From Vermamoeba vermiformis (Eukaryota): a stretch of DNA of 64,000 nucleotides. The notes beneath the pieces were generated by a model. The model did no database searches, was not told the DNA's origin, and saw only the letters and a program-made list of their open reading frames with translations. This document shows positions 260-44,984 of the stretch, piece by piece; position 1 is the first letter of the stretch, and every line of letters starts with the position of its first letter. The position numbers and the translations under genes were made by a program. Where the stretch lies: the NCBI GenBank assembly GCA_045837725.1, contig JBEWZL010000179.1, positions 186,001 to 250,000 on the forward strand, given 5' to 3'.

Positions 260-3200
260 GAATATAAAAAGCCAGCTGCCGACCTCTACCTATGTAACCC
301 TCCTATATTAGATGCCGTTGATGACCTTACGACCCTATCATTTTTGGTACGTATTTCAAACCAGATCTTGCAACTTTTTTAATTTTCAAAAATTAGCACG
401 AGCCTGGTGTGCTGCACAACCTTGAAACTCGATACCAAATGAACATGATTTACTCATTCTCAGGTATTTAATTAATTAAATAATATGACTCTTCACGATC
501 TAACCAATTTTAGGTCCAATTCTTATTGCTGTCAATCCCTATCAACGTCTGCCCTTATATGCCAATGAAATCATTGCAGCTTATTGCGGCCAACCGCTAG
601 GTACGAATAATTCATATTAACTGCGGGATTTGGTGTTGACACTCGTGTTTTGACAGGCAAATTGCAACCGCACATTTACGCCATTGCCGAGCAGTCATAT
701 CGTTCAATGTTAAGTGACGGCCAAAATCAATCTATTCTCGTATCTGGCGAGTCAGGTGCTGGTAAAACAGACTCGACAAAGGTAAGTCCAAATCATTTCA
801 TAGTTGATTTCAGCGGTCATTTTTGACACGTTGCCATCCAGTTTTTGTTGCAATACTTTGCAGCCATGAGTTCAAAGGACGCGACAGGCTCTATCGAGAA
901 GAAAGTGTTGGAATCAACGCCTGTGCTTGAAGCATTTGGTAACGCAAAGACATTGAAGAACGACAACTCGAGTCGATTTGGCAAGTTCATTGAAGTGCAG
1001 TTCAACGACAGAGGCTGTATTTGCGGTGCCAATCTGTCGACTTACTTGTTGGAGAAGTCACGTATTGTGCGTCAAGCAGAGGGTGAAAGAAATTATCACT
1101 TCTTTTACCAACTGTGCGCTGGTGCCTCACCTGAAGAACGACAACGCTTTTACTTGGAAGAACCAGGCTTCTATGAATTCTTGAACAAGAGCGGCTGTTA
1201 CGAAATTGAAGGTGTTGCTGATGACGAGTCATTCAGACGTACTCGTGTCGCTTTTGACATTTTGGGCATTACCAAAGACGAGCAAGAAAATATCTTTGCG
1301 ATCGTTTCTGCAGTACTTCGTCTCGGAAACGTCACGTAAGAATTCTGATTTATTTTGCACGAGAACAAATCTAACAAATATTTTAGCGTGGCACCCAACC
1401 CTAACAACAGTGACGAAGCTGTTATTGGCGATAAAGAGCACTTGGAAATTGCTTGCAAGCTCTTGGGCATTGATTTAGCCACGTGCGAGAAGACTTTCAC
1501 GGTCAGAAAAGTCGTGGCTCCCGGTGAAACTTACATTAAGCCCTTGTCTCCTGCTCAAGCAGAAAGTGCCAAGGACTCACTCGCCATGCTCATCTATTCG
1601 AAACTGTTTGATTGGCTCGTGGCTCGTATCAACAAGTCGATCAACAACAAGGCCGAGTCCAAGTCATTCATTGGCGTGCTTGACATTTACGGCTTTGAGT
1701 CGTTCGAAACAAACAGCTTTGAACAGTTCTGCATCAACTACGCCAATGAAAAGCTTCAGCAGCAATTCAACCAGGTACGATCCATTGGAATTTATTGTGT
1801 GCTAATTTGAATCTGACACGTGTCAAAACAGCACATTTTCAAAATTGAACAACAAGAATACACCAAAGAAAAGATTGACTGGTCGTACATTGAATTCAAA
1901 GATAACCAAGGATGTCTTGATTTGATTGAAAAGAAGCTCGGCATTATTGATCTCTTGGACGAAGAGTGTACTTTCCCTCGTGCCACTGACGACACATTTG
2001 TAAAGTAAGTCGAGCGTTTATTGACGAATCTTATCTAATATTATTACAGTAAACTCTACACTCATCATCTGAAGAACAAACAGTACTTCGAGAAGCCCAA
2101 GTTCGGCACTAACGGCTTCACAATCATGCACTACGCTGGCAAAGTGTCGTACAACTCCAAAGGTTTTCTTGACAAAAACAAGGACTTTATCATTCCCGAA
2201 CAAATGGCCATGATGCAAAGCAGCGCCGATCAGTTCGTGAAGAAGATGTTCTCGCCCCCTCCAAGCTCTGGTGGCTTGTTGAAGTCAGTCTCAAACCTCG
2301 TCAGCGGTAACAAGAGTGGCTCATCATTCAAACTGCTCTCTGTGGCCACACAGTTCAAAGAGTCCCTCGGCCAGCTCATGCAAACAATTTCAGCCACCAA
2401 CCCTCATTACATCCGGTGCATCAAGCCCAACACTTTGAAGCAGCCAATGTGCTTTGAAAGGATGATGGTCTTGCACCAACTTCGCTGCGGTGGTGTGCTC
2501 GAGACCATTCGAATTTGTCGCGCTGGTTTCCCTTCACGTCGTCAATACAACTCGTTCTTCAATCGCTACAAGTTGCTCATGTTGCCCACACCGTTCCCTA
2601 ATCCCACGACCGATGTGGCCTTCAAGAACGCAACAGAAACCCTACTCAAGTAAGAATAATTACTAGAAAACATCCAGAATTAACGAGTATTTGCTTAGGC
2701 ACTTGAACTTGGACCCCAAGACCTATCAACTTGGTCTGACGAAGATCTTCATGAAGGCAGGCATTATTGGTCTGTTAGAAGATCGTCGTACAGTCAAGAT
2801 GGGCAATGCCGCCACTGCCATGCAAAAACACATTCGCAGAATCTACGCAGAGCGCGCCTATGCCATTCAAAAGAAGGCAGTTTTGCGATTCCAAGCTGTG
2901 TTTCGTATGTGCCAGTGCCTCAAGATGGGCGAGTACTTGCGCAGAGAACGTGCCTCAGCCAAGTTACAGATTTATGTGCGCACCTACAATGCCCGCAAAC
3001 AGTACCTCGAAGACCGTCGTGACGTCATCACCTTGCAAAAACGTAAGTTATCTTCTAAAATAATCATAGTTGCTAATTGACCTGCTCAGACATTCGTGGT
3101 CACTTGGCACGCGTGTCATTCCGCGATTCATTGCAACACATTGCAGCCACCAAGATCCAAAAGTTCCTTCGTGCCAAGATGGAGCGCGACAGATTCAACG

Positions 3201-5727
3201 CTCTCAAGCGCATTGCAATTTGGTCGCAAACAAAATGGCGTGCTAAAGTTGCAAGGTAATTAGTGGCTTTTATTGACAGTAAAATAAGCAATATATGATA
3301 ACCTTTTGTGATATTAGAAAGGAGCTCCGCGCCTTGAAGATGGAAGCCAAGAGCTTGAACACAGTGATGAAACAAAAGAAAGAAATCGAAGAAAAATGGG
3401 AACAATTGGAGTGGCGTTATGCTGCTGAGATTAAACTCCGTGAACGACTTGAGAAACAAAAGCACACATTGGAGGATGATTTGAACAAAAAGAATAGCGT
3501 ATGTCGATTATGTATTCAACATTAGTACTCCTAACTAACTTGATCTGATCAGATGGTGGATAAATTGACCTCAACCACCAAACAGCTCGAAGAACAATTG
3601 CAGAGCTGGAAGAACAAGTTCAGCGACAAAGAGAAGGACATTAACACGTTGAAGGACAAGTTCCACGCGTTAGAAGGTGAATTGCAGGCCATGAAACACG
3701 ACAAAGACGAGCTGAAACAAGAAGTCAAGCAATTGAACAAAGACAACAGAGACCAAGATGACTTGATTCGGTCATTGCGCGAGAGAATTAAAGACCTGGA
3801 AGACGAGAATGCTGAGCTCAAGAACAGCCGTGACTCGCTGAAAGATGAGTTGGTGGAGTTTTCCAAGGCCAAACAAGTCATCGAAGACATGAAAAATGAA
3901 CTCGAAGCCATGCATGATGACCGCAAACGTCTCGAAGACGAAAACAATGCGCTCAACACCAAGCTGCTCGAAGCTGTCAAACAACGAGCAGCACAACAAG
4001 AGACCGCTGTTCAACCTCTCACACCTCGCTCTCGTCGCGGTGAAACACCTGAACTTGCTGCGTTGAGGCGACAATTAGCCGCTGAGACAGCACTGCGTCA
4101 CACGGCTGAAAAAGAATTGGCATTGTTCCGCTCTGCAAACCTCGATTTGCACAATGAAATTGCGCACTCGATTGCCTTGCATCAGAGCGAAGAAGAGATC
4201 ATTTACAACGCCATGTTGCCCATCACAACGTCAGGCGAAGTGCCGCGCAGTCTGATCGATCGATTGTTGCTCGACTACTTCGACAGCGCTGCTATCCCTG
4301 CATCGACCTCGAGCGGCAATCTGACCAGTCCCACCAAGGGTTCGCCTGCAACAAATACCTTGCCAACACTGGAAAGATTTGTCAATGGTCTGCCCACCCC
4401 TGGATTCGTCGTGTAAGTCCAAGTTGAATCTGTCGTCAGTAACAACACCAGTTCTAATCTGTGCCATTATTAGCTTCCGATTTTTGCTCCTTTGGAACGC
4501 ACTTTACAACGCCGAAGAATCAGCCCACAAGAAGCTGCTCACTTACTTGCCCCAAGTCATTCGCGCCATGGCTAACGTAAGTCCAACAAACATCTTTGAT
4601 CAATTCAAACTAACCTGGCCGTCATTAGAATGTCACTGAAGACAACACCAGTCTAGTGTACTGGTTGTCCAATCTGACACTGCTCTATCACTTGACGCGC
4701 AATGTAGTTGGTGCGCCACGCATTGAAGTGGTTGCGACACCTTTGTGGGAAGACAGTAAAAAGCCCAAACAATCACAGTAAGCCTTTCAATTCCAATTCT
4801 TCTAGGGTCCTTATTAACGAACTCTGTAGGAGCTCAAAGAACTTGAAGGAGCCTCACGCTGCTGACAAGTTCCGCGATGAAATTCAACACTTGCTGGTGC
4901 GCATTTACACCGTGCTGCTGGAGAATGTCATCACAAAGATCAAGCCCATTGTCTTGGAAAAGTTGTTGAAGCGAGCTCCTGCACCCACCAGTCCTCAATT
5001 GATTGGCAAGCGTGATGCCTCGTTGAAAGATCTCGTGATTTATTTGCGCGACATGCACAATCTGTTCCAACAACACATGGTCTGCCCTCAAGTCACGCAA
5101 CAGTTCTTCACTCAAGTGCTGCAGTTTATCTACGCCAATGTGTTCAACGAGATTATCATGCGCAGTGACTTGTGTAACTTCAACAAAGCATTGGAAATCA
5201 AGATGGACTTGACGCTGCTCGAGGAACGATTCTTCACTGGTCCGCACAAGATTGCCAGCACTCTATACAACGCAGAGCTCGTGCGTCAAGTCGTTAGTGT
5301 CATTTTGATGAGCGAGAAAGCTATTTTGAATGGCGCTGAGACACGCAAAACAGTCTGCCCAGACCTGACTTTGGTGCAGTTGAAACAATTGTTGTCGACC
5401 TTCAATCTCAACACTGACGGCAATGAAGAGGAGACTGTGCCGGTGTCAACATTGACAGCACTCGTGCGCGATCCTGCCTACGACTTGGAGAACTCGCAGC
5501 TGTTGATCGACACAGCTACTGTCCAGCCCCTCAACCTCGCTGAGTTGTACCCATTCGATCTCACCGAGTTCAAGACGATGATCTTCCCGCGCACTGTGTT
5601 CGAACGATTTTTGATCCTTGCCTCGCCATTGAAGAGCAAACATGACAAGCAAACTGAAAAGGCGCAAAAAGCTTATTTCAAGACACTGCTATCAAATTCT
5701 AGTCCTTTGAAAGACAAGATCAAATAA
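260..5727 (+). CDS. Class V/XI-type unconventional myosin (motor, IQ motifs, coiled coil, DIL/globular tail); multi-exon, 5' end not resolved
   Basis: Spliced exons give [19 protein letters not shown]-loop [52 protein letters not shown] and [12 protein letters not shown] repeats at ~2800-3260, coiled coil at ~3300-4000 and a DIL-like tail ([20 protein letters not shown]); stop at 5727. Confidence 0.93.
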
Positions 5728-5806: not shown

Positions 5807-8290
5807 TTAGAAGCGACCTCCGCGACCACCACGGCCACCACGACCGCCACCAAATCCTCCGCGACCACCGCGGCCACCGAAGCCTCCACGTGATCCACCG
5901 TAACCACCGCCGAAACCACCTCGACCACCACGGCCACCGAAGCCTCCGCGACCACCACGACCGCCGAAACCGCCACCAAAACCTCCACGTCCTTCGTCTT
6001 TTTCAACGAGTTCGGGCAAAGCGTCGGCAACGCTGAAAGTGTATTTGCGGAATTGATGGTGCGCATGCTCTTCTTCGCTTTGCATTTCGAGCAATTGATT
6101 GGCCAATTCATCGGGAACATCGACGACAGCACCGCCTTCAGTGGTCAAGCGAATGTCTCGAATGCCAAGTGTCTTGGCACTGTCGAAATCTTTATCAAAA
6201 ATGCTGCCAATAATGCGGATGATGAAGGAAGTAGATTGAATTTGATGTTGTTCTTGTGTGGGCTCGACGCGCAGAGTAGTGAGACCTTCTTGACTGGTCA
6301 ACAGGGAGCGAGACTTGACGGCGTCTTTAATGCCTGCAACGAATGCCAGAGCTGCAGCAACAGCTTGTTCAGCGCCAAAAGTGTCAATGAATGATGTGGC
6401 GTATTGTTTGAACGATTCAATAATCGTAGGGTCCACTGATTCGAGCTTCTCAATTGACTTTTGAGCAGACACTTTGAAGATGTCAGTGGCTTGAGGACGA
6501 CCGATGCGTGTGAATTTGAAGCCAGCCTTTTGTTCGATGAACTTCAGTCTGAAGGCTGTGCGTTGAGTGTAGAACATAATTGAAGTGCCCAATTTGCCCG
6601 CACGACCAGTACGGCCAGAGCGGTGAATGTAGGTCTCGAGTTCTGTGGGAGGTTGCATTTGAATGACCAAATCGACGCCCGGAATATCCAAACCACGAGC
6701 AGCAACGTCAGTGGCGACGAGGACGGAGAACTTCTTGTCGCGGAATGATTGCAAAGTGACTTCACGTTGAGGCTGAGCAATGTCACCGTGCAAGACTTGA
6801 GCCAAGCTAGCCAAATAAGACGAGAGACCGAGCTCGTTGCACTCTTGTTTAGTCTCGCAGAAAATAATTGTGGATTTGCCTTGACCGTAGACCTTGATGA
6901 TGTCACCCACAGTGCCGACACGAGCAGACATGGGCACTTCAATGGCCAAATGTTTCACGGTCTCAGCGGTCTTGACGCGTTCTTTGCCGACCAAATCGAT
7001 GACTTGGTGGTCGGGTGACAAGTGTGTTCTAGCGACGTTTTTGACCCAATCGGGAATGGTAGCTGAATAGAGCAAAGTCTGGTGCTTCTTGTCCTTGGGG
7101 ATGGCGTCGAGAATGCGCTCAATGTCCTCTTTGAAACCAATGTTCAACATCTCGTCAGCCTCGTCGAGAATAACGAATTCAATGTTGTTCAGCTTCAAAT
7201 TGCCACGCTCCAAGTGGTCAATAATACGACCAGGAGTGCCAACTACAATGTCGAGACCGCGGGCCATAGCATTCTCTTGCGGGGCATAGTCCACACCTCC
7301 GTAAATGCACAACGTCTCCATGCCACGAGCAATCATTTTGAATTGGTCGTGCACTTGACGCGCTAACTCACGAGTAGGAGCCATGACAATGACTTTAGGG
7401 CCACGTCCTCGTGTTTTGGTGGCGGGATTGAAAGTTACTAACAACTTTTCAACCACTGGCAAAGCGAAGGATAATGTCTGGATTATATTTAGATACTGCA
7501 TTCAGTATAACGAACGATTAATTAATTACCTTGCCGGTACCAGTACGAGCACGACCAATAATATCATTGCCATCATAAACGACGTCAAAAGACTTGGATT
7601 GGATGGGGAACAAGCGTTCGAAACCGTTTTCTTTCAAGATTGCAACTGTTTCAGGCGAGACACGGAACTCGCTGATAAGAGGCAGGTCTTCCAAATTTAC
7701 TGTAAAATAACATTAATTAATTTTTAACCTCGATCGCGATCCAGTTTTTAACAACATACCAGCTACGTCTTCTTCCTTCTTGACTGATTTTTTCTCGATT
7801 TTTTTCTCTTCTTTTGGTGCGGGTGCTGCAGCATGACCGTTGGTTTTCGGTTCATCCTCTTCCATCTGATCTTCGTCCTTTTTCTTCTTGTCCTTTTTGT
7901 CCTTCTTATCCTTTTTGTCTTTCTTATCTTTCTTATCTTTTTTGCTCTTCTCCTTGGGCTTGTCGCTGGATTCGTCCGACTGTAGATCACATTAGCAAAT
8001 CAAGACAATTCATAATAATAAACGTACCATATCTGCATCATCGTCAGATGCTTCAACTTTAGGCTTTTTTCTTTCAGGTCTGAATAAAATTAAAATTAGG
8101 AGATCAGATTCGAATCCAGATCGCAGTTAAATTTAATCGTCAGAACACCATAAAAGAATTTGGATAGTAAAATACGAACAATATTATGGGTTTTTTGCTA
8201 TTTATTGTTCACTTACTCCTCGTGATCTCCGTTCAGATCCTCGGGTCTAAATCTCTTTTTAGTTAACTCGCGCAAGGCAGACTTGGACAT
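5807..8290 (-). CDS. DDX21: DEAD-box RNA helicase, DDX21/DDX50-like, with Lys-rich N-terminus, GUCT-like domain and RGG tail
   Basis: ATG at 8290 (MSKSALRELTKKRF). Motifs GRARTGTGKT, APTRELA, DEADEML, SAT, HGDIAQ, ATDVAARGLD and HRSGRTGRAG; C-terminal GGRGGRGGF repeats. Confidence 0.9.
5810..5995 (-). repeat. Coding low-complexity RGG/GGFG repeat (helicase tail)
   Basis: Tandem GGFGGRGGRGG units in the translated tail. Confidence 0.85.
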
Positions 8291-8440: not shown

Positions 8441-11400
8441 TTACACTTTTTCGATCATTTCAAACACGAGATCACCAGCAGAGACGCTATCTCCTTTGGC
8501 AACCTTCAGGGCAGAGATCTTTCCGGTGAACGGCGCTGTGATGGTGACTTCGAGCTTCATGGCGCTGAGAACGATAACTGGAGTGCCCTTTTCGACTGCT
8601 TGACCAGCCGACACTTTAATATCGACAATTGAGCCGGGCAACGGAGCACCAACGTCGCCACGCTTGTTGGGATCAGCACGAGGTCGTTTGACTTCTTCGA
8701 CTGCTGTCTTGATAGGACCAGCAGAGCGTAAAATGAATGGCAGTAACTGAGGTGCAGCTGCCTTGACGTTGATGACGTGTTGTTGACCATTGAGATCGAA
8801 GGTCACGGGGAAAACACCGTCTTGAGCAGTGTTGCTGACTGAGACCGACTTGGCGGTGAACTGTTGACCCATTTCTTCGAATGTGACTGACTCGCCTATG
8901 CTCAGTGGCGCCAAGAAAGGACGAGTTGGCAGATTGGTGACATTTCCAAACTTCACTTGGTGCTCCATGTACTCCTCGAACACCTTCGGGTACTGCACGT
9001 AACTCATTACATCGACGTCGCGCATCTTACGACCCCATTTGGATTCAAGTTGCTGCTTGCACTTTTCAAAGTCAAGGGGCTTCATATCAGCACCAGGACG
9101 ACCTTGCACGCGTGGTTTATCCTTCAACACGCGGGAACGGAAAGGCTCGGGGAACCCGCCGTGAGGTTGACCCAAGTAACCTTGCAAGTATTCAATAACA
9201 GAGCTGGGGAAGTTGAGCTCTTCAGCCTTGTCCAATGTAGCCTGCTTGTTGAGCTTGTTGGCGACCATAAATGATGCCAAGTCACCGACAACTTTGCTGC
9301 TCGGTGTGACCTTGACGATGTTTCCAAGTATTTCGTTGGCTTCAGCGTAAGCTTGTTTGATTTGTTCCCATTCTTCAGCCAGACCCATAGAAATGGCTTG
9401 GAAGTACAAGTTGGTGTACTGGCCTCCAGGAATTTCGTTGATGTACACGTCAGCACCAGCGCTCTTTTGACCGGATTCGAAAGGAGAATACAATCGGCGA
9501 GTGCCCTCCCAGTAAGTAGTGAGCGGCAACAAGTTCTCGAGCTTAACGCCAGTGTCCTTGTTGGAATTAGCCAGGTCATGAATAATGGCACCCATAGCCG
9601 GTTGAGCTGTCAATCCACTCAACGCATCGTTGCAGCAATCCACGGCATTAGCTCCTGCGTTCACGCAAGCCAACATCGAGGCAACACCAGTTCCGGCAGT
9701 GTCATGAGTATGTACATGAATAGGAATATCCGGGAACTCCTTTCGCAGAGCTGAAATAAGGAGGGTCGCAGCTGTTGGTTTCAATAGACCAGCCATGTCT
9801 TTGATGCACAAAACATGCACACCAAGTTTGACAAGATCTCGTGCCATGTTCAAATAATACTCCAGGTCGTACTTGGTCTTGACCGGGCTGAGAATATCAC
9901 CAGTATAGCAAATAGCAGCTTCGATAATACCACCGGCTTGACCAACGGCATCAATACCAAGTTTCATGTTCTCGATGTAATTGAGCGAATCGAAGATGCG
10001 GAAGACGTCCATGCCCGTGTCTTTAGCTTGCTTGCAGAACTTGTAAATCACATTGTCGGGATACGCAGTGTAGCCCACAGCGTTGGCGCCACGGAAAAGC
10101 ATTTGGAAGGGAATGTTGGGAACGAGCTCACGCAACTCGGCAAGACGATCCCAAGGACATTCGTGCAAGAAGCGCAACGCGACGTCGAAGGTGGCACCAC
10201 CCCAGTTCTCAATGCTGTAGCAGTTGGCCAATGCGTGAGAAGTCGCGCGAGCAATGTTCTTCATGTCGATTGTGCGCATACGTGTCATCAACAATGATTG
10301 ATGTGCGTCACGCCAAGTCGTGTCCGTGAGCAGTGCGCCCTTGTGATTCCTCACTGCCTTGACGAAACCAGCTGCACCCTCCTTGTCAAAGATTTGCTTG
10401 AGACCTGGCGGTGGAGGCTGAGACGAGAATACACTGCCTGAGGGATATTCTGGCGATGCCTTGGGCAACTTAGGATTTGACTTGCTTGGAGCAGGTCCAA
10501 CAGCGCCAGGGTGCTTGGGACCGTTGACAGCCATCTCAGCCAAATACTTCGTGATCTTCAGCGCTTCTTCTGTCGCGCGTTGGGTCTGATTTGTACGTTC
10601 ACGTTCGAGTTTCAATTGGATGTCTTGAGCTTTCTTCTGCTTGGCTCTGAACTCCTGCGTCTCCTTTTCAATAGACTTTAGGAATTGGTTGTACTTCTTA
10701 ACGTCCAACACCTCTTCTTTGAAGTCCAACTTCATTTTGCCGCTGGTGAAGTCTGGGCGTTGACGCTCAAGCTCCTCCTCACTAACCTTCTTGAAACGAA
10801 TTTGATCGAACATGTCAAAGAGCCAAGGTTTTTCGGGGCTGAAGTTAGGCAAGTTACCAGCATTGTTCCAAATCGGCAGCGTACGGCCAACCAATTGATA
10901 TCCTCCAGGAGATTCCATCGAGTAGATGCACATATATTGTCCACCAATACCAACAGCTCCTTCGGGTGTGAATGTTCGGGCTGGATTGTATTTGGGAACA
11001 ACCAATCTGTGTCGAGGATCCAATGGCACTGCACAGGGAGCACCTAAGTAGACGTCTCCAAGACCCAACACCAAGTAACTAGCGTTCAGAACGATGTTTT
11101 CTACATCTTTAGGACCATCAAGTCCGTTGTTCTTCGCTATGAAGTCAACGTTCTCGGGCAAATAGAGAGCTTCCGAACGAATGCTTTTCATGTATCTGTC
11201 GATGGCCTGTCTGTTCCACTTGTCTTGGAATGCAAGAGGAAGAGTGAAAACACGGCTCTTGAGCTTTACGTCGTCTGACTTTGGTAATTCGTCTTCAGCA
11301 GTTGTCAAAATATTCATCAAATCGTTCAACGGTAGTTTTCTGTTATCGTAGTAGATCAGCATGTTACGCACACCGGGGATCGTGTCAATCAGGCCAGTTA

Positions 11401-12959
11401 TTTTCTTCTTGCGGAGGTACTCTTCCAAGAAGTGAATACGAACACGAGTATTAATGTCCAGAACCAGCTCGCCATATTCTACCAAAACATATCTATCACC
11501 AGCAATGCGGTACTCGACCTTGGGACGAGTGGCTGTTGCTTCCATTCGCGTTATTAGAGCGCGATCCCCGTGCTTATTCTCTTTCGATACAGCCACACTC
11601 GGTGCGGAAGCTTTCTTTTCTGATTGAAGCTGAAGAGATGCGATTGAATCGTCAACAGCCTTGCGAGCAGCTAGAGCTTGGTCCATATTTACGCGACGGA
11701 ATTTAATTTTATCGCCGGGCTTGACTTGACCAATCTTCCACATTTGATACGAAGGGATTGTGATAGGACAAACAAAACCGCCTAAACTAGGGCCATCGAC
11801 GGTCAAAAGTACGGGATGATCACCAGTAAAGTTAATCGCACCAATGGCGTAGGGGCTATCGTTGATGTTAGAAGGGTGACTACCTCCTTCACCGCCGTCA
11901 GGACGCGCGAACTTTGGCTTGGATCCATTTGATATTAGGCGCACCCCCAATCGACTGGCATTGTGTGTAACTTCGAAGGTAGAAGTGAACAAGCTAGCAA
12001 TGTCCTCGTTTGTAAAGTACTCTGGAGCCTCTTGCGGACCAAGCAGAACATCAACGTTCCATTCAGAAGTTATTGCTGGGACTAGAGACTTCGGAAGTGT
12101 TCTTTCGGCAGCCTTTGAAGATGGTTTTCCGAAGTACAATTCGTCGTTTGCCTGCAACTGACGACCCTGTTCATTTGTGTTAGAGAAGTCACGATGCACG
12201 ATATTAGCTTAATCTTACATCTGCTCCACCAAACTTGCCCAAAGGGAAAGTTGCTTTGCTTCCCAAGTATTTTGGAACGTCTATACCGCCTGGAACAATT
12301 CATTAGTCAAATTTAAAATTGAGGTGGTACAAAAATGACGTACCAGCAATAGCAAGATAAGTGCGCGCACCGCATCCCTCTATCTTTCCGAGCTTCAATA
12401 CGCTTCCTTTTTTTACGGCCACTGAGGTCCACCAAGGAACAGGTTTACCATCCAAATCTGCCTGCATCTGAGCGCCAGTGATGGCGACGAAAGTATCCTG
12501 ATTGAATTGTATAGTAGGGCCTGTGAAGGATAACTCTAGAGCGGCAGCGCCCTCTTCATTGCCGACAAGCACGTTGGCGAGACGAAAAGAGTAGTCATCC
12601 ATCGGGCCAGATGGGGGTACACCAACTCGCCACAACCCTTCTCGACCAGGGAAATCTTGAATTAAAGAAAAAGTTCCAGGGCTGAGAATTTTTACGGAGT
12701 GATCCGGAAACGCTGGAGACCGCGGATGAACAACTGAATCCGGATTCACCTTTTGTGTTGAATAGCTCGTGTATTGCAAGGCATCTGATGCGCACATTCC
12801 ATTTGAGACTCCACAGGCGTGGAACAAAGCCTTCTTTCTCGCTTTTTCTCGTACACTTTTCTGGATGGACCATTGAAGTCCAGCCCTCAGTGAAGAGCTG
12901 CCCTTATTTAGTGAAAGGTATGTGCCAGGTACCCGAAGACACGCTCTCAGTCCTAGCAT
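8441..12959 (-). CDS. Fusion of urea-carboxylase carboxyltransferase (CT_A_B + CT_C_D), pyruvate-carboxylase carboxyltransferase and biotinyl domain; no biotin carboxylase domain; putative mitochondrial presequence
   Basis: Three exons (~12959-12344, 12289-12219, 12166-8441). UC motifs: QDFPGREGLWRVGVPPSGPMD, HPSNINDSPYAIGAINFTGD, GLGDVYLGAP, KYNPARTFTPEGAVGIGG. PC motifs: TDTTWRDAHQSL, WGGATFDVALRFL, IKDMAG, HVHTHDT, VKVTPSSKVVGD. Biotin-carrier motif SAMKLE. Confidence 0.9.
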
Positions 12960-13750
12960 GTTGTCCGTGTGAGTAAAATAAACGGTTACAAAAAAAAAAT
13001 GTTTATAAAAATCGCGTGCCTCGCTTCTCATTGGTCCGTTCAAATAAATTTGTTTAATTAAACACAATTTTATGTACCTACACATAAATCAATTGTTACT
13101 AGTAACATACCATGCTTCGTCCGTGCGTAGCAAGATCAGTGTAAAAAGTGCTCCTCTAACCTGGCCGAATTATGTGGGACTACAGTAGAGAGGCAAGCCA
13201 AAGGTGTTAACAATTCAACGCACGCTATTGACAGTATTAATAAGGTTCATGTAGCCGAAGCAACAGAAATTACCCTTATCTATTTCTCTCGGAAAGTAAA
13301 ACGAGTTATTTTTCATTAATTAACAAAAAATATATTAATGCGTAGTTAAACAACGATGTTATCTGTTTGTAATATCAATCCACTGTAATATGAAAGATTT
13401 CATTTATTTTGAATTTTCTTCATAATTATTTATAATACCTTTTTGCCGAAGAGGGTTACGTTTTTAGAGCATGGACGAGGAAAGTATTTGTTCGTGGTTA
13501 TGGCGGTAGAATACGAAGGTCTACAAAAACTGACAAACGTGTTTGATCTTTGGACACCTGTTGTGCATAATAGTATTTCGAGCGCTAGCCTTGTTGAGAC
13601 ATTGATTTAATTAAATTGTATCGCATTTATGTCACACTGAAGTCGAGTACACCACATGTATATCATCAACACTATATAAATAACACATATATCACAAAAC
13701 TAGGTTGCTCGAATTACAGATCTGACACTTTTTTGTTGCTAGTAACATCG

Positions 13751-14787: not shown

Positions 14788-16939
14788 TTAAGGAGTGATA
14801 CCGAGTTGCTTGTAGGCAGTGGCGATCTTTTGGATGGCGCTAACGAAGGCAGCAAGTCTCAAAGAGCAGTTCTACAGGACACGACATTAGTGGCCAGTTC
14901 TAATGTACATTGCAGTGTTGTAATACATACCTTTTCGTGAGAGATGGCGCGAACTTGTTCGTAAGCAGTGGCCATAGTGTCCAAGAGACCAGAGCGGACC
15001 AAATCCAACTCTTCAGGACCACGAGGAGTGATCTTCTTGTGAGCAACGTGCTCAAGGGTATCAGTGATCTCCTTGATTTGGGCCTCAGTGAATCGCTTAG
15101 TCTATTATAAAAAAAAAGCGCGGTTAGTAACGGTAACAAATAGTTCTGGATCTTCACTCCACTTACCAAACGACCGAAGCGAACGTGTTGAATGTTCTTC
15201 AACCACTCGAAGTATGAGACGACGACACCACCAGCATTGCAGAGAATGTCGGGGATGATAAGAACACCCTTGTTGTAGAGGATCTTGTCGGCGTCAGCAG
15301 TGACGGGACCGTTGGCACCTTCGGCGATGAGCTTGGCCTTGATCTTGTGAGCGTTGTCCTTGGTGATTTGACCTTCGAGGGCAGCAGGGACGAGAATGTC
15401 GCAGTCGAGTTCGAGACCTTCAATGGAGGGGATGATGACAGACTTGGCGCCGGGGAACTTGTTGAGCTCGTTGCCCTTCTCCTTCCACTCCCACAAAGCA
15501 GGGATGTCAAGACCTTCGGGGTTGTACAAGCAGCCGTTGGCCTCAGCGATGGCGACGACCTTAGCACCGTTCTCGTGCAAGAACTTGGCGCTGAAGGAGC
15601 CGACGTTACCGAAACCTTGAACGACAACACGCTTGCCAGCAATACCAGGGGTGAGACCCATCTTCTTGACGTCATCAGCGTAGCTCAAGGCCTCACGGAC
15701 GGCGTAGAAAACACCGAGACCGGTGGCTTCGTTACGACCACGAACACCTCCTTGGGTCACAGGCTTACCAGTGACGCAAGCAGTGGCGTTCAAGTCCTCG
15801 CTGCGCATAGCCTCATAGGTATCCTTGATCCAAGCCATTTCACGGGGACCAGTACCGACGTCAGGGGCGGGCTAGGAAACAAGTTTAGGTAAGAAACGAG
15901 GTAGTTTCGTAATGAGGCCTAATACTTACGACGTCGAGGGCAGGGCTGAGCATGTTCTTCTTGATCAACTCAGAAGCATAACGACGAGTGATAGCTTCCA
16001 ATTGGCCAGCGTTGAACTTGCGGGGGTCAATCTTAACACCACCCTTGGCACCACCGAAGGGAACATCGACAACGGCGCACTTGTAGCTCATGAGAGAAGC
16101 CAAAGCGACGACTTCCTTCTCGGAGACGTGAGTGCTGAAGCGAATACCTCCCTTCATGGGCAAACGGTGAGGGCTGTGTTGGCATCTCCAAGCCTCAACG
16201 AGGGTAGTGTCGTGAGTGCCAGTTTTCTGAACGGAATGGGGTTAATCGCGGGTAATATAATTAATTATAATTAATTTTAAAATATTAAATATAAATTTGT
16301 GCGCTAAAGTGGTAGACAGAAAATTGGTAAATCTTGAGCTTAATCCACTTACGGGGTTGTAGTCCATCTTGACGGGGAAAGAAACCTTGTAGACGGAGCG
16401 GCAGACTCTAGAAAGGGCGATTGTCAGTATAAGGGCACATAAGGACGCAATCTAAGCCTACCTGATAACATCCAAAATGTTTTGAGGAATCTCGGGCAAG
16501 AGCTTGGCAGCCTCGTTGAAGAAATGCTCGGTGGAAGCCAAGAAGGTGTTGTCATCAGGAGCACCAGTGTTTTGAGCGTTGCGCTTGGCCGAAACGGTGA
16601 AGCTGCAAGATTTGACCGTTAGAAGATGCATTGAATTAACTCTCAAAAATTAGCAAGAAAATCCACGAAAATGTGGTCGGATAGGTATTCAGTCGATCTT
16701 TAGATTAGTGGGGTGGGTAAATTCATTCAGATGAAAGGAAATTAATTAACCGCAACCCTATATCAAGTGCGACACTGTAAGGCGGGCGATCAATACCTTC
16801 GAGTGGCAGTCTTGGAGGTAGTACCAACCAAAGCGGTCTTTAAATACAGAGCTCCGTTAGTCAAGGGATGGGGTAGTTTGAGGTGTTTCGTGTCACTTAC
16901 GCTGCGCTTGGAGGTTTGGCGAAGAACTTGCGAGAGCAT
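14788..16939 (-). CDS. GDH: Glutamate dehydrogenase, NAD(P)-dependent, probably mitochondrial; multi-exon
   Basis: Motifs [57 protein letters not shown] and [15 protein letters not shown]. Arg/Ser-rich N-terminus [13 protein letters not shown]. Confidence 0.95.
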
Positions 16940-34232: not shown

Positions 34233-37200
34233 ATGAGCACTTCAACCTCACCTGGATCTGTTGCCGATCCAAAGAGTGCCGAACACGCAGGAGTGATATT
34301 GAACTCAATATTTAAAGTATTTCAGAACGAAATAACGGCTGCTATTAACGCGAACCTCCAATCTTATCCACTAAACGATGAATCCAAAAGAAATAAGGTA
34401 AATTAAATTTGAAAATATCAAAAATATTTAGATACCAGCACGGTGTATTATTCATCCATTGTTATTAATGTGTATGCATAAATATTACCGCAATCATCAA
34501 AAAATCATGTATCGCCACAATTCCTGATCCGTTGTAATCTCTGCAGGACACTATTCGAGCGAGTCGTGAGCCCAGCAAAGACAAATCAAGGCAGCAGTTG
34601 ACTGAAGTGCACGAACACCCACATCTCAAGCACTGGCTGCACTTCCCCAAAGACATTTCCTTTTTTGGTGAAATGATCCAGTCCATCAGTCAAGTCGCGC
34701 AGTACAACTTTGAAGTGTTGTTCTCACTGCTGCTCGCCTGGCTGCCACAACGCGCCATCAAAGACAGCGAAGAGTTGCTGAGTGCGCTGGACACGGAGAG
34801 CTGGTGCTCATTCACGACCTTTGTGCACGGCATCAAGGGCTTCAAACTGAGTGATCAGCGCACCCTCGATCTGTTGGAGATCGTCGTCGTGTACATCATC
34901 AGCGAGCTCTTGCGCCGTGTGCTCTGTGCGCGCGCGGTCACGCAACAACTGACGGGCCCAGCACTCAACAAGCTGTTTCAGATGGCTGTCAACTTCTTCA
35001 AGCCCATGACTCCCAGGTAGGCGTGTGACACGTGTCATTGCAGTGTTTGTGTTGTTGACACGTGCTGGCAGGGCGATGGAGAGCAGTGCGTGGAGTGCGT
35101 TGAATCAGACCGTGTTGGAGAATTGGATCAATATCTGCGGCTACATCTCGCCATTCGTGTATGTATCGCTATATTTGGTAACATGTCTGCACACGAGTTG
35201 ACAGGTTGTTGTGACAGCTTGCCCCAAATCTCGGAATATCTCGCGAAGACAGTGACGAAGCTGAGCGCGGAACAACAGAACAGCGTGCTGCACGGTCTGT
35301 CAGCAATCAAGCTGAATGTGACGAGCAGCGAGCTGAGCGAGGAGTCCAAGAACATTGTCAGTCGCGTGCTGCCCTTCATCATCTTGAAGGACAAGAACAC
35401 GCTGCGTGCCGGGCCCTTGGAGGTGTTGGACAGCGCACTCATGTCGATTGACTTCAGCAACAACCCCGTCATCGATGAGAAGGCACGTGCTGCGTACAAA
35501 TTCTTGCAAAAGCTGAACGAGAAGGGCGATGACAGTGCCGTGGAGGGGCCAGCACTGCGACTGATGGCCACCATTCTGGCGCACGGACCGCGCGAGTACT
35601 ACTTCAAGCACGCGTACTCGTACGTCAGCAAGACACTGCTCAAGGGCGCATTCAATCCCAAGAAGAAGGACGCCTGTCTCGCGGCCATCCTCACGCTGCT
35701 GCAGGGACGACACGTGCCGGGTGCTGATTCGCCGTACACCTACTTGCCTTTTATGGAAATGGACAAGTGCAAGGACAAGTTGTTGAGCATCAGCGAAGGG
35801 CTCTTCGGTCAAAAAACTCCGCTGCCACGTGTCAACGAGTCACTCGATCTCTGCGCGGAGATATTGCTGCAGATCGGTGCGCACGTGGGTGTCAAGGCCC
35901 TGCACGAGGGACCACTCACTGATCTGCTCAATTCGCCGCACCACGCACACGTCTTGCTGGCACTGCGCGTCACTCGCCGTTTGACACTGCCCGACCTGCC
36001 ACTCAAAGCACCACGTGACACTTTGGAGGCCCTGGCACGTGTTCTCAGCAAACTGTCACGTGCGCTGAGTGAATTGAATGCCGACTGCCCTGGCCGCGTA
36101 GATCTCGCACCTGTGACACTCGTTGACAGCGAGCTGTTGACACGTGTCATTGACGAGACCGTAGATCAAAATATTCCGCTGGACGCTACCATCAATGCGC
36201 AGGAAGAGCGAGCCCTGGTGAGTATATGTGCAGCCATGGACTCGAGCACGTGACTGAAGTCTATATGTAGCGCGACAAATTCAAAGCCATGCAAAGTCGA
36301 TTGAAACGCTTTGCCACCACCACGAGCGAAGACCTCGAGTCTGAAGAGGAGAAGTCGCTGTACAAGATTGTAAGTGCTATTTATAGCCCCATGCCCTGTT
36401 TGACCATATTAGGACCACTTCGTGCAAGATCGCATCAAGATCTGGTCGAGTGTGGTGAATGAACTCACTGCCAACAACTACGCGCAGCCGATATTCGAGG
36501 AATTCGATCAGAGCGACGAGACCAAAGCCGTGGTACGTGCCGCATTGTGTTTGACACCTGTCACACCTGTCAGTTAACGTTGTTGCACAGAATAAGCGCA
36601 CCATTTTCAACAAGCCAGCGACCAAGAGACGCGTGACCAGTCCCGAGCGGAGTGTGCAGCACGAGCTATTTAAGGAAATGATCACGTGCCTCGAGTCACT
36701 GTTGCCCGACGAACAAACGCTGCAACTGGCCCTGCTGCCCGACGAGAAGTTGATGCTGCAAGTGCCCGGCGAAGAGGGCGCGTTCATTGGCCGCTACGTG
36801 CTGCACAGCGACGACGAGGTGAGCAGTGTCTGCGCGCACTTCTTGCAGCGCGTGATGCTCACCCAGCCCAGTCTGCGCGTCAGTGTCGTCAAGGCCATGT
36901 GTGCCCTGGTGCTGCAGCTCAGCGAGAGTGCGGAACAACAGCAGCACAACATCCGCTCCGCACTGCAACACCTCTTGCTGCTCGTCGATCTCTGGGTGTT
37001 TGCACTCATGCGCACCACTGCCCGTGAAGGCGTGCCACCAGTGCCACTCTCGCTGATTCTAAAATTAGAGCGCGTGGCACTGATCATGATGTCGCACTGG
37101 AGTGCTTCAGTGCGCGGTGTGGCGATCGATCTGGTGCACAGTGCGCAGTGTCTGGCCACACTCGCCGTGCACGCGACACACGACCGCGCCCACATTGTCA

Positions 37201-43200: not shown

Positions 43201-44088
43201 GACGAGGACAGCATGGACAGCTTTGATCTCGATATGGAGGGCGCAGACGACGCGTTCTTCAAGGCGTTTGATCTGGAAGAGAAGGAGTCGAGCAAGCTAG
43301 ACGACGACTTCAACAGCCTCATGTCCTCGCTCAACAATCCCAGTGTCCTCGCGGCCAATGACGACGATCTCGCCTCGCTGCCCTCGCTGCCCTATGAAGT
43401 TGACTCCATTCAGAAAGCACTGCACGGCCTCAAACTGCTCGAGTCGAATGACAGCTCGTCCACTGAGCCTAAAAATAGCACCAAGACGGACAGCGGTCTC
43501 TCCACGCCCTCCTCCATGCCCTCCACACCCACCACGGCTCCGAGCTCGCCCTTCACCCCTGCGCCCGTCGCTGACATTGCCACGCAGTTGAGTGACATCT
43601 TTGACAAGTCGCAGGTCCGACGTGTGTTCAAGAGCTTTGTCGGTGAGTAGATTGCCTTATTTGGCAGTGCCAGCATACTAACCCTACCCCTTGCTGCAGA
43701 GAAGAACAATCTCGACAAGACACTCGTGGACTTGGCCGAGGCACTGTACGACTATCGCAACAACATCATCTCGAGCACGTCGTCCATGTCCACCAAGGCC
43801 AAGCTCATCATGCAGCGCTTCTTCCCCAAGAGTTCTTCCGCTGCGAGCTCGAGCAGCATACCCGAGGCACTGAAGCGCGAGACGATCAAAGCCTATGAGA
43901 CTGCACTGCTGTCAGGTACTGTCGCATTGCACCGCACGTGATGCATATATTCACCTTCTTCCTAATTAGGCAAATTCTCCAAGTCATTGTTCGAGAAGAT
44001 TGAAGCAATTACCACCCAGATATTGAACCGCGACTATTTCCCGCTGTTTGTCAAGTCAGATCTATTCGCGCAGATCAACCAGAGCTAA
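34233..44088 (+). CDS. Furry/Tao3/Mor2-like giant helical-repeat protein with C-terminal RGS-like domain; multi-exon
   Basis: The N-terminal VILNSIFKVF and MIQSISQVAQYNFEVLFSLLLAW segments resemble the MOR2-PAG1 N-domain, followed by ~9 kb of helical exons. The last exons read RRVFKSFVEK...AKLIMQRFF...SLFEKIEAITTQILNRDYFPLFVKSDLF, an RGS-type pattern. Confidence 0.6.
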
Positions 44089-44770: not shown

Positions 44771-44984
44771 GTTTGGCAATGAGTTCAATACCGTTGAAGG
44801 GCTTGATACTGAATAGAGCAAGGCACCGCTCATCAATGCTGTACTCATATTTAATGCCATGCAGGTAACGGATAACGCAGCTCGATATCTCAGAATACGA
44901 ATCGACCACGTGATTTCAGGTACAATATTTTATTTTAGTTTTGTGCATAAATTTATCTTTAGTATCCCACAAAACTGCACTATC
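44771..44984. promoter_or_regulatory. Putative bidirectional promoter between HIU hydrolase and the FdrA-DUF1116 fusion
   Basis: Only ~214 bp separate two divergent start codons. It contains a CACGTG at 44907 and an AT-rich tract; function is inferred from geometry. Confidence 0.5.

What the first reader, a model, noticed from the sequence alone, without database searches (positions are those of the whole stretch)
8441..12959. Candidate single-chain urea/oxaloacetate transcarboxylase: two different carboxyltransferases share one biotin arm and there is no biotin carboxylase
Seen: the order is presequence-like leader, urea-carboxylase CT, pyruvate-carboxylase helix (KITKYLAEMAVNG) and TIM-barrel CT, then one biotinyl domain (AMKL). 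The UC-PC junction (~10560-10700) lies inside one continuous exon. Both active sites look intact: UC has HPSNIND, GDVYLG, KYNPAR and MCIY; PC has RDAHQS, KDMAG, HTHD and VTPSSK. No ATP-grasp motif is present, and the ~790 bp before the next gene (NDUFA12) is too short for a ~450-aa BC domain. Known: urea carboxylase and pyruvate carboxylase normally each use an ATP-dependent BC, whereas Propionibacterium transcarboxylase couples two CTs through biotin without ATP. The Asn in GAINFTGD is the urea-type state; guanidine carboxylases have Asp there. Inference: the enzyme may catalyse oxaloacetate + urea <-> pyruvate + allophanate without ATP, probably in mitochondria. I do not know of this architecture being characterised.
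Basis: partly seen in the sequence, partly recalled or inferred. Interest (0 to 1): 0.92.

Follow-up and report, generated by a model that had tools for sequence, protein, structure and literature searches.

The report
Amoeba biotin enzyme lacking ATP domain
An amoeba gene joins the urea-handling half of urea carboxylase to the oxaloacetate-handling half of pyruvate carboxylase on one biotin arm with no ATP-using domain, so it may pass CO2 from oxaloacetate to urea without ATP, an activity not described before.

Summary
A minus-strand gene at 8441-12959 has three coding exons. It encodes a urea-carboxylase-type carboxyltransferase (CT_A_B + CT_C_D), the pyruvate-carboxylase PT helix, the PC carboxyltransferase and one biotinyl domain. 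No biotin carboxylase (BC) is in the gene or anywhere in the 64 kb.

It is not an assembly chimera. Fifteen protein clusters share the architecture, including transcriptome ORFs from Copromyxa, Amoeba proteus and Dracoamoeba. Each half forms one clade.

Both catalytic halves look intact. The window keeps 62 of 62 columns near-invariant in urea carboxylases and 118 of 120 near-invariant in pyruvate carboxylases. The Asn that separates urea from guanidine enzymes is present. The tether to the biotin domain is 43-48 residues, against a median of 30 in 135 ordinary PCs.

Best reading (about 0.5): an ATP-independent oxaloacetate:urea transcarboxylase, untested. Main rival: a BC supplied in trans. 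One relative has a decayed PC site and three lack it. The one spliced contig covering the leader removes the proposed start codon, so mitochondrial targeting is unsure. Transcarboxylases, including a fused Giardia one, are known, so this is a new variant of a known kind.

The parts
13439..13589 (-). 5' leader exon A (upstream end open)
   Evidence: X1 contig record 6. The joint 13224->13439 has CT..AC ends on the + strand, which is GT..AG on the minus strand, with sides of 115 and 151 nt. It holds only short uORFs.
13111..13224 (-). 5' leader exon B
   Evidence: Same contig. The joint 12951/12952->13110/13111 has a 20-nt side and depth 3.5, so support is weak. It ends in an ATG that gives a 2-codon uORF after splicing.
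12344..12959 (-). Coding exon 1. It holds a basic N-terminal extension and the first part of CT_A_B. The start is either ATG 12959-12957 (genomic reading) or ATG 12797-12795 (if the leader intron ending at 12953 is removed).
   Evidence: ORF and Pfam CT_A_B profile 1-94. Splice donor after 12344. Start-codon alternatives.
12219..12289 (-). Coding exon 2 (71 nt), middle of CT_A_B
   Evidence: GT..AG borders. The translation aligns without gaps to P0004-P0007, P0010 and P0019.
8441..12166 (-). Coding exon 3. It carries the rest of the UC-type CT, the junction, the PC-type CT and the BCCP. Stop codon at 8443-8441.
   Evidence: Continuous ORF with Pfam and NCBIfam matches.
11696..12626 (-). UC carboxyltransferase subdomains A and B (across both introns). 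The urea-type Asn (K. lactis N1330) is at codon 11833-11831.
   Evidence: PF02626 at 5.3e-37 and 2.1e-38. Mapping to 3VA7/5I8I numbering. The Asn/Asp rule is in PMC11410670.
10859..11515 (-). UC carboxyltransferase subdomains C and D. The Asp (K. lactis D1584) is at 11056-11054, and the general-base Lys (K1605) is at 10993-10991.
   Evidence: PF02682 at 2.5e-40. K1605 is called the general base in PMC5770610. The 21-residue spacing is the same as in K. lactis.
10520..10675 (-). Junction, where the C-terminal helix of the UC part runs directly into the PC PT-domain helix
   Evidence: UC homology ends at ORF residue 509 and PC homology begins at residue 500. The PT helix begins at codon 10558.
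8861..10342 (-). PC-type carboxyltransferase (TIM barrel plus PYC_OADA). Site residues by codon: R 10312, D 10309, Q 10300, R 10093, K (KDMAG) 9802, H 9712, H 9706, T (VTPSSK) 9307.
   Evidence: PF00682 and PF02436. 799 bits to human PC structures. 118 of 120 near-invariant PC columns kept. Coordinates. The roles of these residues are recalled from the PC literature, not from a call.
8651..8785 (-). Lengthened tether between the PT domain and the BCCP (45 residues)
   Evidence: 43-48 residues in 17 clade rows, against a median of 30 (IQR 30-30, range 26-52) in 135 canonical PCs.
8456..8653 (-). Biotinyl (BCCP) domain, with the biotinyl-Lys codon at 8557-8555 in an AMKL motif
   Evidence: PF00364 at 2e-15. 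The Lys is kept in 16 of 16 aligned rows.

Best explanation
The gene encodes a biotin enzyme that has no biotin carboxylase. It most likely works as a self-contained transcarboxylase.

**Proposed mechanism.**
- The PC-type carboxyltransferase takes CO2 from oxaloacetate onto the tethered biotin and releases pyruvate.
- The biotinyl domain swings on a lengthened tether to the urea-carboxylase-type carboxyltransferase. That module sits where BC sits in pyruvate carboxylase.
- There the CO2 is passed to urea, giving allophanate.
- Net reaction: oxaloacetate + urea <-> pyruvate + allophanate, with no ATP.

**Shown here:** the domain order, the absence of BC, intact catalytic residues in both carboxyltransferases, the urea-type Asn, one biotinyl lysine, the long tether, and conservation of the whole arrangement across Amoebozoa.

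**Inferred:** the reaction itself, its direction in the cell, the pull by an allophanate hydrolase, and the compartment.
For: 1. **Domains.** CT_A_B, CT_C_D, HMGL-like, PYC_OADA and Biotin_lipoyl are present and no BC family is. The same holds in the transcriptome ORFs P0005 and P0010.
2. **Clean cut at the BC boundary.** P0005 matches urea_carbox profile positions 450-1102 of 1201 and pyruv_carbox positions 462-1142 of 1143. Both halves are cut exactly at the BC boundary.
3. **No BC in the window.** The best tblastn E-value for three BC queries is 0.95. The 5' leader seen in RNA is non-coding.
4. **A conserved family.**
   - Among the 282 proteins then held, 23 carry both halves. They fall into 15 clusters at 90% identity.
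   - Named members come from Copromyxa protea, Amoeba proteus and Dracoamoeba.
   - The UC halves form one clade (SH-like support 99) and the PC halves one clade (support 100), with matching subgroups. This points to an old single fusion.
5. **Both halves constrained.**
   - The window keeps 62 of 62 columns that are at least 95% conserved in 57 other UC-type rows.
   - It keeps 118 of 120 columns that are at least 95% conserved in 136 canonical PCs.
   - The other main-clade rows keep 93-100%.
   - Identity to the window is similar in the two halves: 52-86% for UC and 56-92% for PC.
6. **Urea-type site.** The window has N at K. lactis 1330, D at 1584 and K at 1605. All rows that cover the site have the N.
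7. **Tether.** It is 43-48 residues, against a median of 30 in 135 canonical PCs.
8. **Precedent.** Biotin transcarboxylases need no BC. A fused one exists in Giardia (passage in PMC7985675; background passages in PMC3199775).
Against: - No activity data exist.
- No genome is held. A stand-alone BC, an allophanate hydrolase, a urease or a urea transporter could not be sought. No AH is in the window (best tblastn E = 2.3).
- Four members of the same clade lack a working PC site in cis.
  - P0019 keeps only 61 of 112 covered PC columns and has lost the RDAHQS, KDMAG, HTHD and VTPSSK motifs. It still keeps 58 of 62 UC columns and its biotinyl Lys.
  - P0143, P0146 and P0276 lack the PC barrel altogether.
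  - If these proteins work, their biotin must be loaded in trans.
- UC-CT-like proteins are known to seize the biotin of another carboxylase's BCCP in trans. The example is mycobacterial MSMEG_0435-0436 on the LCC complex (passages of PMC13012033).
- Bacterivorous amoebae are not obviously short of nitrogen, so the benefit of breaking down urea is unclear (my reasoning).
- P0008 has G in place of the metal-binding D in RDAHQS.
Confidence: 0.5

Rival explanations
1. This is an ATP-dependent carboxylase whose BC comes in trans. The protein would be a beta-type subunit with two carboxyltransferases and one BCCP. Its biotin would be carboxylated by a separate BC subunit, or by the BC domain of canonical pyruvate carboxylase (or another mitochondrial carboxylase) after co-assembly through the retained PT and CT oligomerisation surfaces. 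It would then carboxylate urea, and perhaps pyruvate, at the cost of ATP.
For: - The PC part passes the NCBIfam 'pyruvate carboxylase subunit B' domain model (450 bits, cut-off 402). It also matches the beta subunit of a two-subunit PC (5KS8, 2.3e-86).
- Clade members with a dead (P0019) or deleted (P0143, P0146, P0276) PC site must load biotin in trans.
- P0143 keeps the PT helix and the PT strands while losing the barrel. This fits a docking role.
- One BC-BCCP serving two different carboxyltransferases, and UC-like proteins binding a foreign BCCP, are both documented in the mycobacterial LCC complex (PMC13012033 passages).
- Canonical PC exists in Amoebozoa (Phalansterium, P0288).
Against: - If the PC part were only a dock, its catalytic columns should decay as in P0019. 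Instead the main-clade rows keep 111-120 of 119-120 covered columns.
- No BC lies in the gene, the leader or the 64-kb window.
- From general knowledge, not a call: stand-alone BC subunits in eukaryotes are known from plastid acetyl-CoA carboxylase, and amoebozoans have no plastid.
- The UC module replaces BC exactly at the domain boundary. That fits a substitution of one biotin-loading site by another.
Confidence: 0.25
2. The mechanism is transcarboxylation, but the acceptor is not urea. It could be another amide, ureido or lactam nitrogen compound. In that case the UC-type site has been retuned, or the physiological direction is different.
For: - The UC-CT fold family handles several substrates. 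These include urea, guanidine (PMC12186494 and PMC11410670 passages) and, in the PxpBC relatives, 5-oxoproline (family names).
- The clade is a distinct branch, separate from characterised urea enzymes.
- No allophanate hydrolase was found in the window.
Against: - All 62 near-invariant UC columns are kept, including N1330, D1584 and K1605.
- The score to the urea_carbox model (699-865 bits) far exceeds the scores to PxpB and PxpC (45-133 bits, both below cut-off).
- Asp at 1330, the guanidine mark, is absent in every row that covers the site.
Confidence: 0.12
3. The protein is non-catalytic or regulatory, for example a biotin-sequestering or scaffold protein. Alternatively it is an artefact of assembly or gene calling.
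For: MSMEG_0435-0436 lowers carboxylase activity by sequestering biotin and has no urea carboxylase activity (PMC13012033). RNA coverage in the window's own species is low and patchy (X1 depth 3-12 over parts of the gene).
Against: - Catalytic columns are fully kept in both halves, unlike MSMEG_0435, which lacks key residues.
- The junction is present in three independent transcriptomes and in many independent contigs.
- It also lies inside one uninterrupted exon here.
Confidence: 0.03

Closest known systems
Propionibacterium transcarboxylase (methylmalonyl-CoA:pyruvate carboxytransferase, 12S + 5S + 1.3S subunits)
   Same: Two different carboxyltransferases exchange CO2 through one biotin carrier, without BC and without ATP. 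One of them is the PC/5S-type TIM-barrel enzyme acting on oxaloacetate and pyruvate. The window matches 5S structures at 3.7e-64 and the 5S NCBIfam model at 278 bits.
   Different: The second carboxyltransferase there is a 12S acyl-CoA enzyme. Here it is the unrelated urea-carboxylase type (CT_A_B/CT_C_D), and no acyl-CoA CT domain was found. That system has three subunits and this one is a single chain. The PC part here derives from a eukaryotic single-chain PC, with its PT domain, and is closest to human PC (799 bits).
Giardia/retortamonad fused (methyl)malonyl-CoA:pyruvate transcarboxylase (Jordan et al. 2003, seen only as cited in PMC7985675 and PMC3199775)
   Same: It is a eukaryotic single polypeptide combining two carboxyltransferases and a biotin carrier without BC (passage in PMC7985675).
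   Different: The acceptor module is an acyl-CoA carboxyltransferase, not the urea type. It belongs to a different eukaryotic supergroup and the fusion is independent. I did not see the 2003 paper itself, so its exact domain order is not checked.
Urea carboxylase / urea amidolyase (K. lactis 3VA7, 5I8I)
   Same: The carboxyltransferase is homologous over about 480 residues (E = 4.6e-132), with D1584, K1605 and the urea-type N1330 kept. The domain order A-B-C-D is the same.
   Different: There is no BC and no allophanate hydrolase domain, and the BCCP is of PC origin. The whole-protein score falls below the curated cut-off: 699 bits for the window exon and 865 for P0005, against 1304.
Single-chain eukaryotic pyruvate carboxylase (human 7WTA, 3BG3)
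   Same: The PT helix, CT barrel, PT strands and BCCP are colinear with PC residues 455-1177. 118 of 120 near-invariant columns are kept.
   Different: BC is replaced by the UC carboxyltransferase. The tether to the BCCP is about 15 residues longer. In the subclade that holds the window, the biotin motif is (A/S)MKL instead of AMKM.
[quoted passage not shown]
   Same: A UC-CT-like module without its own BC engages the biotin of a BCCP that also serves another carboxyltransferase (PMC13012033 passages).
   Different: Those proteins lack key urea carboxylase residues, show no such activity and act in trans as inhibitors. Here the residues are intact and the BCCP is on the same chain.

Membership tests
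Urea carboxylase (EC 6.3.4.6; NCBIfam TIGR02712) | N-terminal biotin carboxylase (ATP-grasp) domain | tested here: not met
   No PF00289, PF02786 or PF02785. The TIGR02712 match covers only profile positions 450-1102 (P0005) or 589-1119 (window exon). tblastn of BC queries against the window finds nothing better than E = 0.95.
Urea carboxylase (EC 6.3.4.6; NCBIfam TIGR02712) | UC-type carboxyltransferase with D1584, K1605 and Asn at 1330 (K. lactis numbering) | tested here: met
   CT_A_B and CT_C_D are present. The residues map to model positions N341, D600 and K621. 62 of 62 conserved columns are kept. The residue rules come from PMC11410670 and PMC5770610.
Urea carboxylase (EC 6.3.4.6; NCBIfam TIGR02712) | Curated whole-protein score | tested here: not met
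   699 bits (window exon) and 864.6 bits (P0005), against a cut-off of 1303.85.
Pyruvate carboxylase (EC 6.4.1.1; NCBIfam TIGR01235) | BC domain and curated whole-protein score | tested here: not met
   The match covers profile positions 421-1141 only. The score is 913 bits against a cut-off of 1114.45.
Pyruvate carboxylase (EC 6.4.1.1; NCBIfam TIGR01235) | PT domain, CT barrel with metal and substrate residues, and C-terminal BCCP with biotinyl Lys | tested here: met
   (118 of 120 columns kept). The Lys is at model position 1433.
Biotin-dependent transcarboxylase (EC 2.1.3.1 type) | Two carboxyltransferase sites plus a biotin carrier, with no BC | tested here: met
   Domain content.
Biotin-dependent transcarboxylase (EC 2.1.3.1 type) | 12S-type acyl-CoA carboxyltransferase as the second site | tested here: not met
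   No acyl-CoA carboxyltransferase family appears among the Pfam hits. The second site is of the UC type.
Biotin-dependent transcarboxylase (EC 2.1.3.1 type) | ATP-independent carboxyl transfer between two substrates | not testable with these tools
   Needs an enzyme assay.
Two-subunit pyruvate carboxylase, subunit B (NCBIfam NF006761 domain model) | CT + BCCP scoring above the curated cut-off | tested here: met
   450 bits against a cut-off of 402, over residues 624-1248. This is a domain-level model only.
Two-subunit pyruvate carboxylase, subunit B (NCBIfam NF006761 domain model) | A partner BC subunit encoded in the genome | not testable with these tools
   No genome is held for this window. 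None lies within the 64 kb.
Oxaloacetate decarboxylase Na+ pump, alpha subunit (TIGR01108) | Curated whole-protein score | tested here: not met
   425 bits against a cut-off of 756.5. Membrane partner subunits were not sought.
5-oxoprolinase PxpB/PxpC | Curated scores for PxpB and PxpC, in a biotin-independent enzyme | tested here: not met
   PxpC scores 133 bits against 500. PxpB scores 45-48 bits against 145.55. A BCCP is fused here.

The most novel reading that the evidence does not exclude
Amoebozoa possess a new enzyme activity, oxaloacetate:urea carboxyltransferase. It would form the first ATP-independent route from urea to allophanate and, with an allophanate hydrolase, on to ammonia. 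It would harvest the energy of oxaloacetate decarboxylation, a step that protein- and purine-fed amoebae need anyway. The enzyme would have arisen by swapping the biotin carboxylase of pyruvate carboxylase for the urea carboxyltransferase.
Probability: 0.42. Interest if true: 0.85.

Novelty: new variant of a known kind. Interest (0 to 1): 0.76.

Why it matters
- **New enzyme activity.** If the reading is right, it adds a new reaction to the small set of biotin transcarboxylases. Urea could then be activated without ATP or nickel, beside urease and ATP-dependent urea amidolyase.
- **Module swapping.** It would be a natural experiment in swapping modules of swinging-arm enzymes. A carboxyltransferase takes the structural place of BC in the pyruvate carboxylase frame, and the tether is lengthened. 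This is of interest for enzyme engineering.
- **Nitrogen metabolism.** It bears on nitrogen handling in free-living amoebae, which are major bacterial grazers.
- **Directly testable.** One recombinant protein and a lactate-dehydrogenase-coupled assay would test it.
- **If the rival is right.** It would be a eukaryotic case of a carboxylase that borrows its BC in trans, which is also unusual.

Tried and rejected
- **Whole-genome search.** No genome is held for this window.
- **RNA evidence.**
  - No RNA holder was listed for the stretch.
  - The three raw-read RNA runs of a related species (X21-X23) laid almost nothing on the gene. Reads were 90-99% alike and fell almost only on NDUFA12. They give no evidence on this gene's expression or 5' end.
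  - Only Logan contigs of X1, a run guessed to be RNA and showing spliced contigs, touch the gene.
- **Metagenome scan.** A scan of metagenome contigs with the window's UC part matched 45 pattern stretches, and none was a relative. DNA of relatives, synteny and dN/dS were therefore not obtained.
- **Prokaryote genome scan.** A scan of genome contigs with a 4-row UC-only alignment used only two patterns. It gave one locus, a split CT_C_D/CT_A_B gene pair in a Desulfobacter MAG, which is not a fusion. With so few patterns this is weak evidence that prokaryotes lack the fusion.
- **ESM Atlas.** The best score was 0.77, to PC subunit B clusters. No large cluster shows this architecture. This is a lead only.
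- **Earlier findings of this scan.** Nothing lies near this place. One unrelated bacterial urea cluster shared 4 of 180 words.
- **Papers.**
  - The K. lactis UC structure paper (JBC 2012) is not held. Only K1605, D1584 and N1330 could be taken from other papers.
  - Four searches for a described UC-PC fusion or urea transcarboxylase found none. One search was too loose to be informative.
  - Supplements were not consulted.
- **Jobs not sent.** No structure or complex prediction was run. The full protein exceeds the 1200-residue limit. BCCP docking would not separate the main reading from its rival.
- **Rejected readings.**
  - Assembly chimera: three transcriptomes and many contigs carry the junction.
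  - 5-oxoprolinase-type PxpBC: scores are far below cut-off and a BCCP is fused.
  - Guanidine carboxylase type: Asn, not Asp, at position 1330.

Full report
**What is in the sequence.**

The finding lies on the minus strand. A single uninterrupted ORF, 8441-12199, encodes 1252 residues. An upstream ORF, 12303-13085, carries the start of the same protein.

Pfam places the domains in this order:
- CT_A_B, with profile positions 1-94 in the upstream ORF and 117-260 in the large exon
- CT_C_D
- HMGL-like
- PYC_OADA
- Biotin_lipoyl

No biotin carboxylase (BC) family is found.

The missing CT_A_B positions lie in a 71-nt exon, 12289-12219. The two coding introns have GT..AG ends. The spliced translation aligns without gaps to seven homologues.

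Homology to the K. lactis urea carboxylase structure ends at ORF residue 509. Homology to human pyruvate carboxylase begins at residue 500. The junction therefore has no spacer and sits at about 10675-10520, inside the exon.

**The 5' end.**

NDUFA12 lies upstream on the same strand. Its stop codon is at 13714-13716. Related-species RNA reads end in poly(A) near 13612.

Contigs of run X1 are spliced at NDUFA12, so X1 very likely holds cDNA, although its kind is only a guess on record. One X1 contig (depth 3.5) joins 13589-13439 to 13224-13111 and then to 12952, all with GT..AG ends. The last joint has only a 20-nt anchor.

That leader holds only short uORFs. Its last splice removes the ATG at 12959. 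The next in-frame ATG is at 12797, giving 1416 residues instead of 1470.

Two conclusions follow. There is neither room nor evidence for BC exons upstream. And the presequence-like leader is not established.

Among homologues, the N-terminus differs:
- Dracoamoeba (P0010) and P0019 have basic N-terminal extensions.
- P0146 also starts with a short basic stretch.
- Copromyxa (P0005), P0004 and P0006 start right at the domain.

tblastn of three BC domains and two allophanate hydrolase domains against the whole window found nothing better than E = 0.95.

**It is a real, conserved gene family.**

A word-indexed search returned 14 clusters with 80-99% query coverage and 55-89% identity (P0001-P0014). 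Each carries both halves and no BC. The search also returned P0019 at 39% identity. Canonical pyruvate carboxylases follow, and they cover only the PC half.

Among the 282 proteins then held, 23 carry both halves. Nine of these are members of the P0001 cluster, including a 99%-identical NCBI ORF, P0133.

Named members are:
- Copromyxa protea
- Dracoamoeba jomungandri, whose source header says Stereomyxa
- Amoeba proteus

All three are Amoebozoa and all three records come from transcriptomes.

In the exhaustive HMMER search of 1.84 billion representatives, only two of the best 150 match the query end to end: P0001 and P0019.

NCBIfam shows where the cut lies. P0005 matches urea_carbox profile positions 450-1102 of 1201 and pyruv_carbox positions 462-1142 of 1143. 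Both scores are below the curated cut-offs.

**Trees.**

I used FastTree on 75 UC-type rows and on 154 PC-type rows. I left out the near-identical P0001-cluster members and rows with under 420 (UC) or under 600 (PC) aligned residues.

The fusion's UC halves fall in one clade of 18 rows (SH-like support 99). Its sisters are BC-bearing eukaryotic-type urea carboxylases such as that of Paulinella. The PC halves fall in one clade of 17 rows (support 100) among eukaryotic PCs.

P0019's PC half is the exception. It sits on a very long branch (2.18) and its position is not reliable.

Subgroups agree between the two trees. This fits one old fusion that was then inherited vertically.

**Are both sites intact?**

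I took columns that are at least 95% one residue in rows outside the clade.

| Row | UC columns kept (of 62; 57 outside rows) | PC columns kept (of 120; 136 outside rows) |
|---|---|---|
| Window | 62 of 62 | 118 of 120 |
| Other main-clade rows | 93-100% of covered columns | 111-120 of 119-120 |
| P0019 | 58 of 62 | 61 of 112 covered |

The window's two PC differences are an A>M change and the M>L change of AMKM to AMKL.

Using the alignment to 3VA7 and the 593-residue offset to 5I8I, I mapped three K. lactis residues onto the window:
- N1330 is the N of GAINFTGD (model N341).
- D1584 is the D of GLGDVYLG (model D600).
- K1605 is the K of KYNPAR (model K621).

K1605 is described as the likely general base in passages of PMC5770610. 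A Methods passage of PMC11410670 states that D1584 is required and that Asp at 1330 marks guanidine carboxylases. The review PMC12186494 says the same in words.

All rows that cover the site have Asn. A bacterial homologue fetched here, P0194, has Asp in that motif. This shows that the column does vary.

**A derived feature.**

The linker between the last PT strand and the BCCP differs:
- 43-48 residues in 17 clade rows
- 40 residues in P0019
- median 30 (IQR 30-30, range 26-52) in 135 canonical PCs

A conserved lengthening of about 15 residues is what one would expect if the carrier must reach a new site. That is an inference.

**Mechanism.**

In pyruvate carboxylase the BCCP shuttles between BC and CT. 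Here the UC carboxyltransferase is fused to the PT helix exactly where BC would be.

The simplest working cycle has two steps:
1. The PC-type site loads biotin from oxaloacetate.
2. The UC-type site unloads it onto urea.

This is a transcarboxylase. The principle is established for the Propionibacterium enzyme, and a fused eukaryotic form exists in Giardia (PMC3199775 and PMC7985675 passages).

A possible rationale is that amoebae feeding on bacteria must turn C4 acids into pyruvate anyway. Coupling that decarboxylation to urea activation would save the ATP that urea carboxylase spends. This is my reasoning and is not shown.

**What argues against a self-contained enzyme.**

Some members inside the clade lack a working PC site:
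- P0019 has lost nearly all PC catalytic motifs but keeps the UC site and the biotinyl lysine.
- P0143 lacks window ORF residues 564-1089, the span between its two aligned segments. This removes the CT barrel and PYC_OADA but leaves the PT helix, the PT strands and the BCCP.
- P0146 and P0276 have UC-CT followed directly by the BCCP tether.

These three are ORFs on unnamed contigs and could be paralogues or imperfect gene calls. If they are real, their biotin is loaded in trans.

UC-like proteins that grasp a foreign BCCP are documented in mycobacteria (PMC13012033). So a BC supplied in trans remains a serious rival, for instance by co-assembly with canonical PC. Its weakness is that it does not explain why the PC catalytic residues stay invariant in the main clade.

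**Comparison with what is known, and verdict.**

The protein fails the defining BC test for both urea carboxylase and pyruvate carboxylase. It lacks the acyl-CoA carboxyltransferase of classical transcarboxylase. It is not a member of any of these three families. It works most like a transcarboxylase.

Four literature searches found no description of this fusion or of a urea transcarboxylase. One of them was too loose to be informative.

I rate it a new variant of a known kind, of high interest and unproven. My odds are:
- about 0.5 for the oxaloacetate:urea transcarboxylase reading
- 0.25 for BC supplied in trans
- 0.12 for a different acceptor

Noticed in passing
window 44817-47612 (+) and 48266-48994 (-): Purine-catabolism genes lie 32-36 kb from the fusion gene. 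One ORF carries CoA-ligase and CoA-binding domains. It is followed directly by an ORF matching AllG, the oxamate carbamoyltransferase subunit (7e-89), a bacterial-type allantoin/oxalurate pathway enzyme. A uricase exon (8.8e-41) lies nearby. The first two sit in a GC-rich block of 55-59%. A link to urea supply is possible but untested.
   Followed up: partly
window 35021-43650 (+): Six long ORFs of 210-410 aa in the GC-rich block have no Pfam match. Their nature is unknown.
   Followed up: no
window 61105-63999 (+), open at the window end: A long protein built of at least ten HAMP repeats (1.2e-98). It probably belongs to a HAMP-repeat sensor kinase. That assignment is recalled, not tested.
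   Followed up: no
window 12952-13589 (-): The fusion gene's leader has two introns and three short uORFs. It starts within about 25 nt of the NDUFA12 poly(A) site seen in related-species RNA. Splicing versus retention of the last leader intron would switch between a long basic N-terminus and a short one.
   Followed up: partly
protein P0019 (unnamed ENA contig): A full-length relative (1390 aa) has a decayed PC carboxyltransferase (31% identity, catalytic motifs lost). Its UC site and biotin motif are intact.
   Followed up: partly
proteins P0143, P0146, P0276 (unnamed contigs): Clade members with clean in-frame absence of the PC barrel. P0143 keeps the PT helix and strands. P0146 and P0276 go from the UC linker straight to the BCCP tether.
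   Followed up: partly
L001 9965-11940 (+), Desulfobacter MAG: A split bacterial CT_C_D / CT_A_B gene pair is 49% identical to the window's UC part and has the INFTGDH-type motif. It lies next to an arylamine N-acetyltransferase and a LysR regulator. No BC or biotinyl domain was found among the 10 ORFs scanned, out of 17 listed.
   Followed up: partly
window 827-5727 (+), 5807-7501 (-), 14900-15871 (-): Ordinary eukaryotic neighbours: a myosin with head and DIL domains, a DEAD-box-like helicase with a Gly/Arg-rich tail (judged from the translation only), and glutamate dehydrogenase.
   Followed up: no
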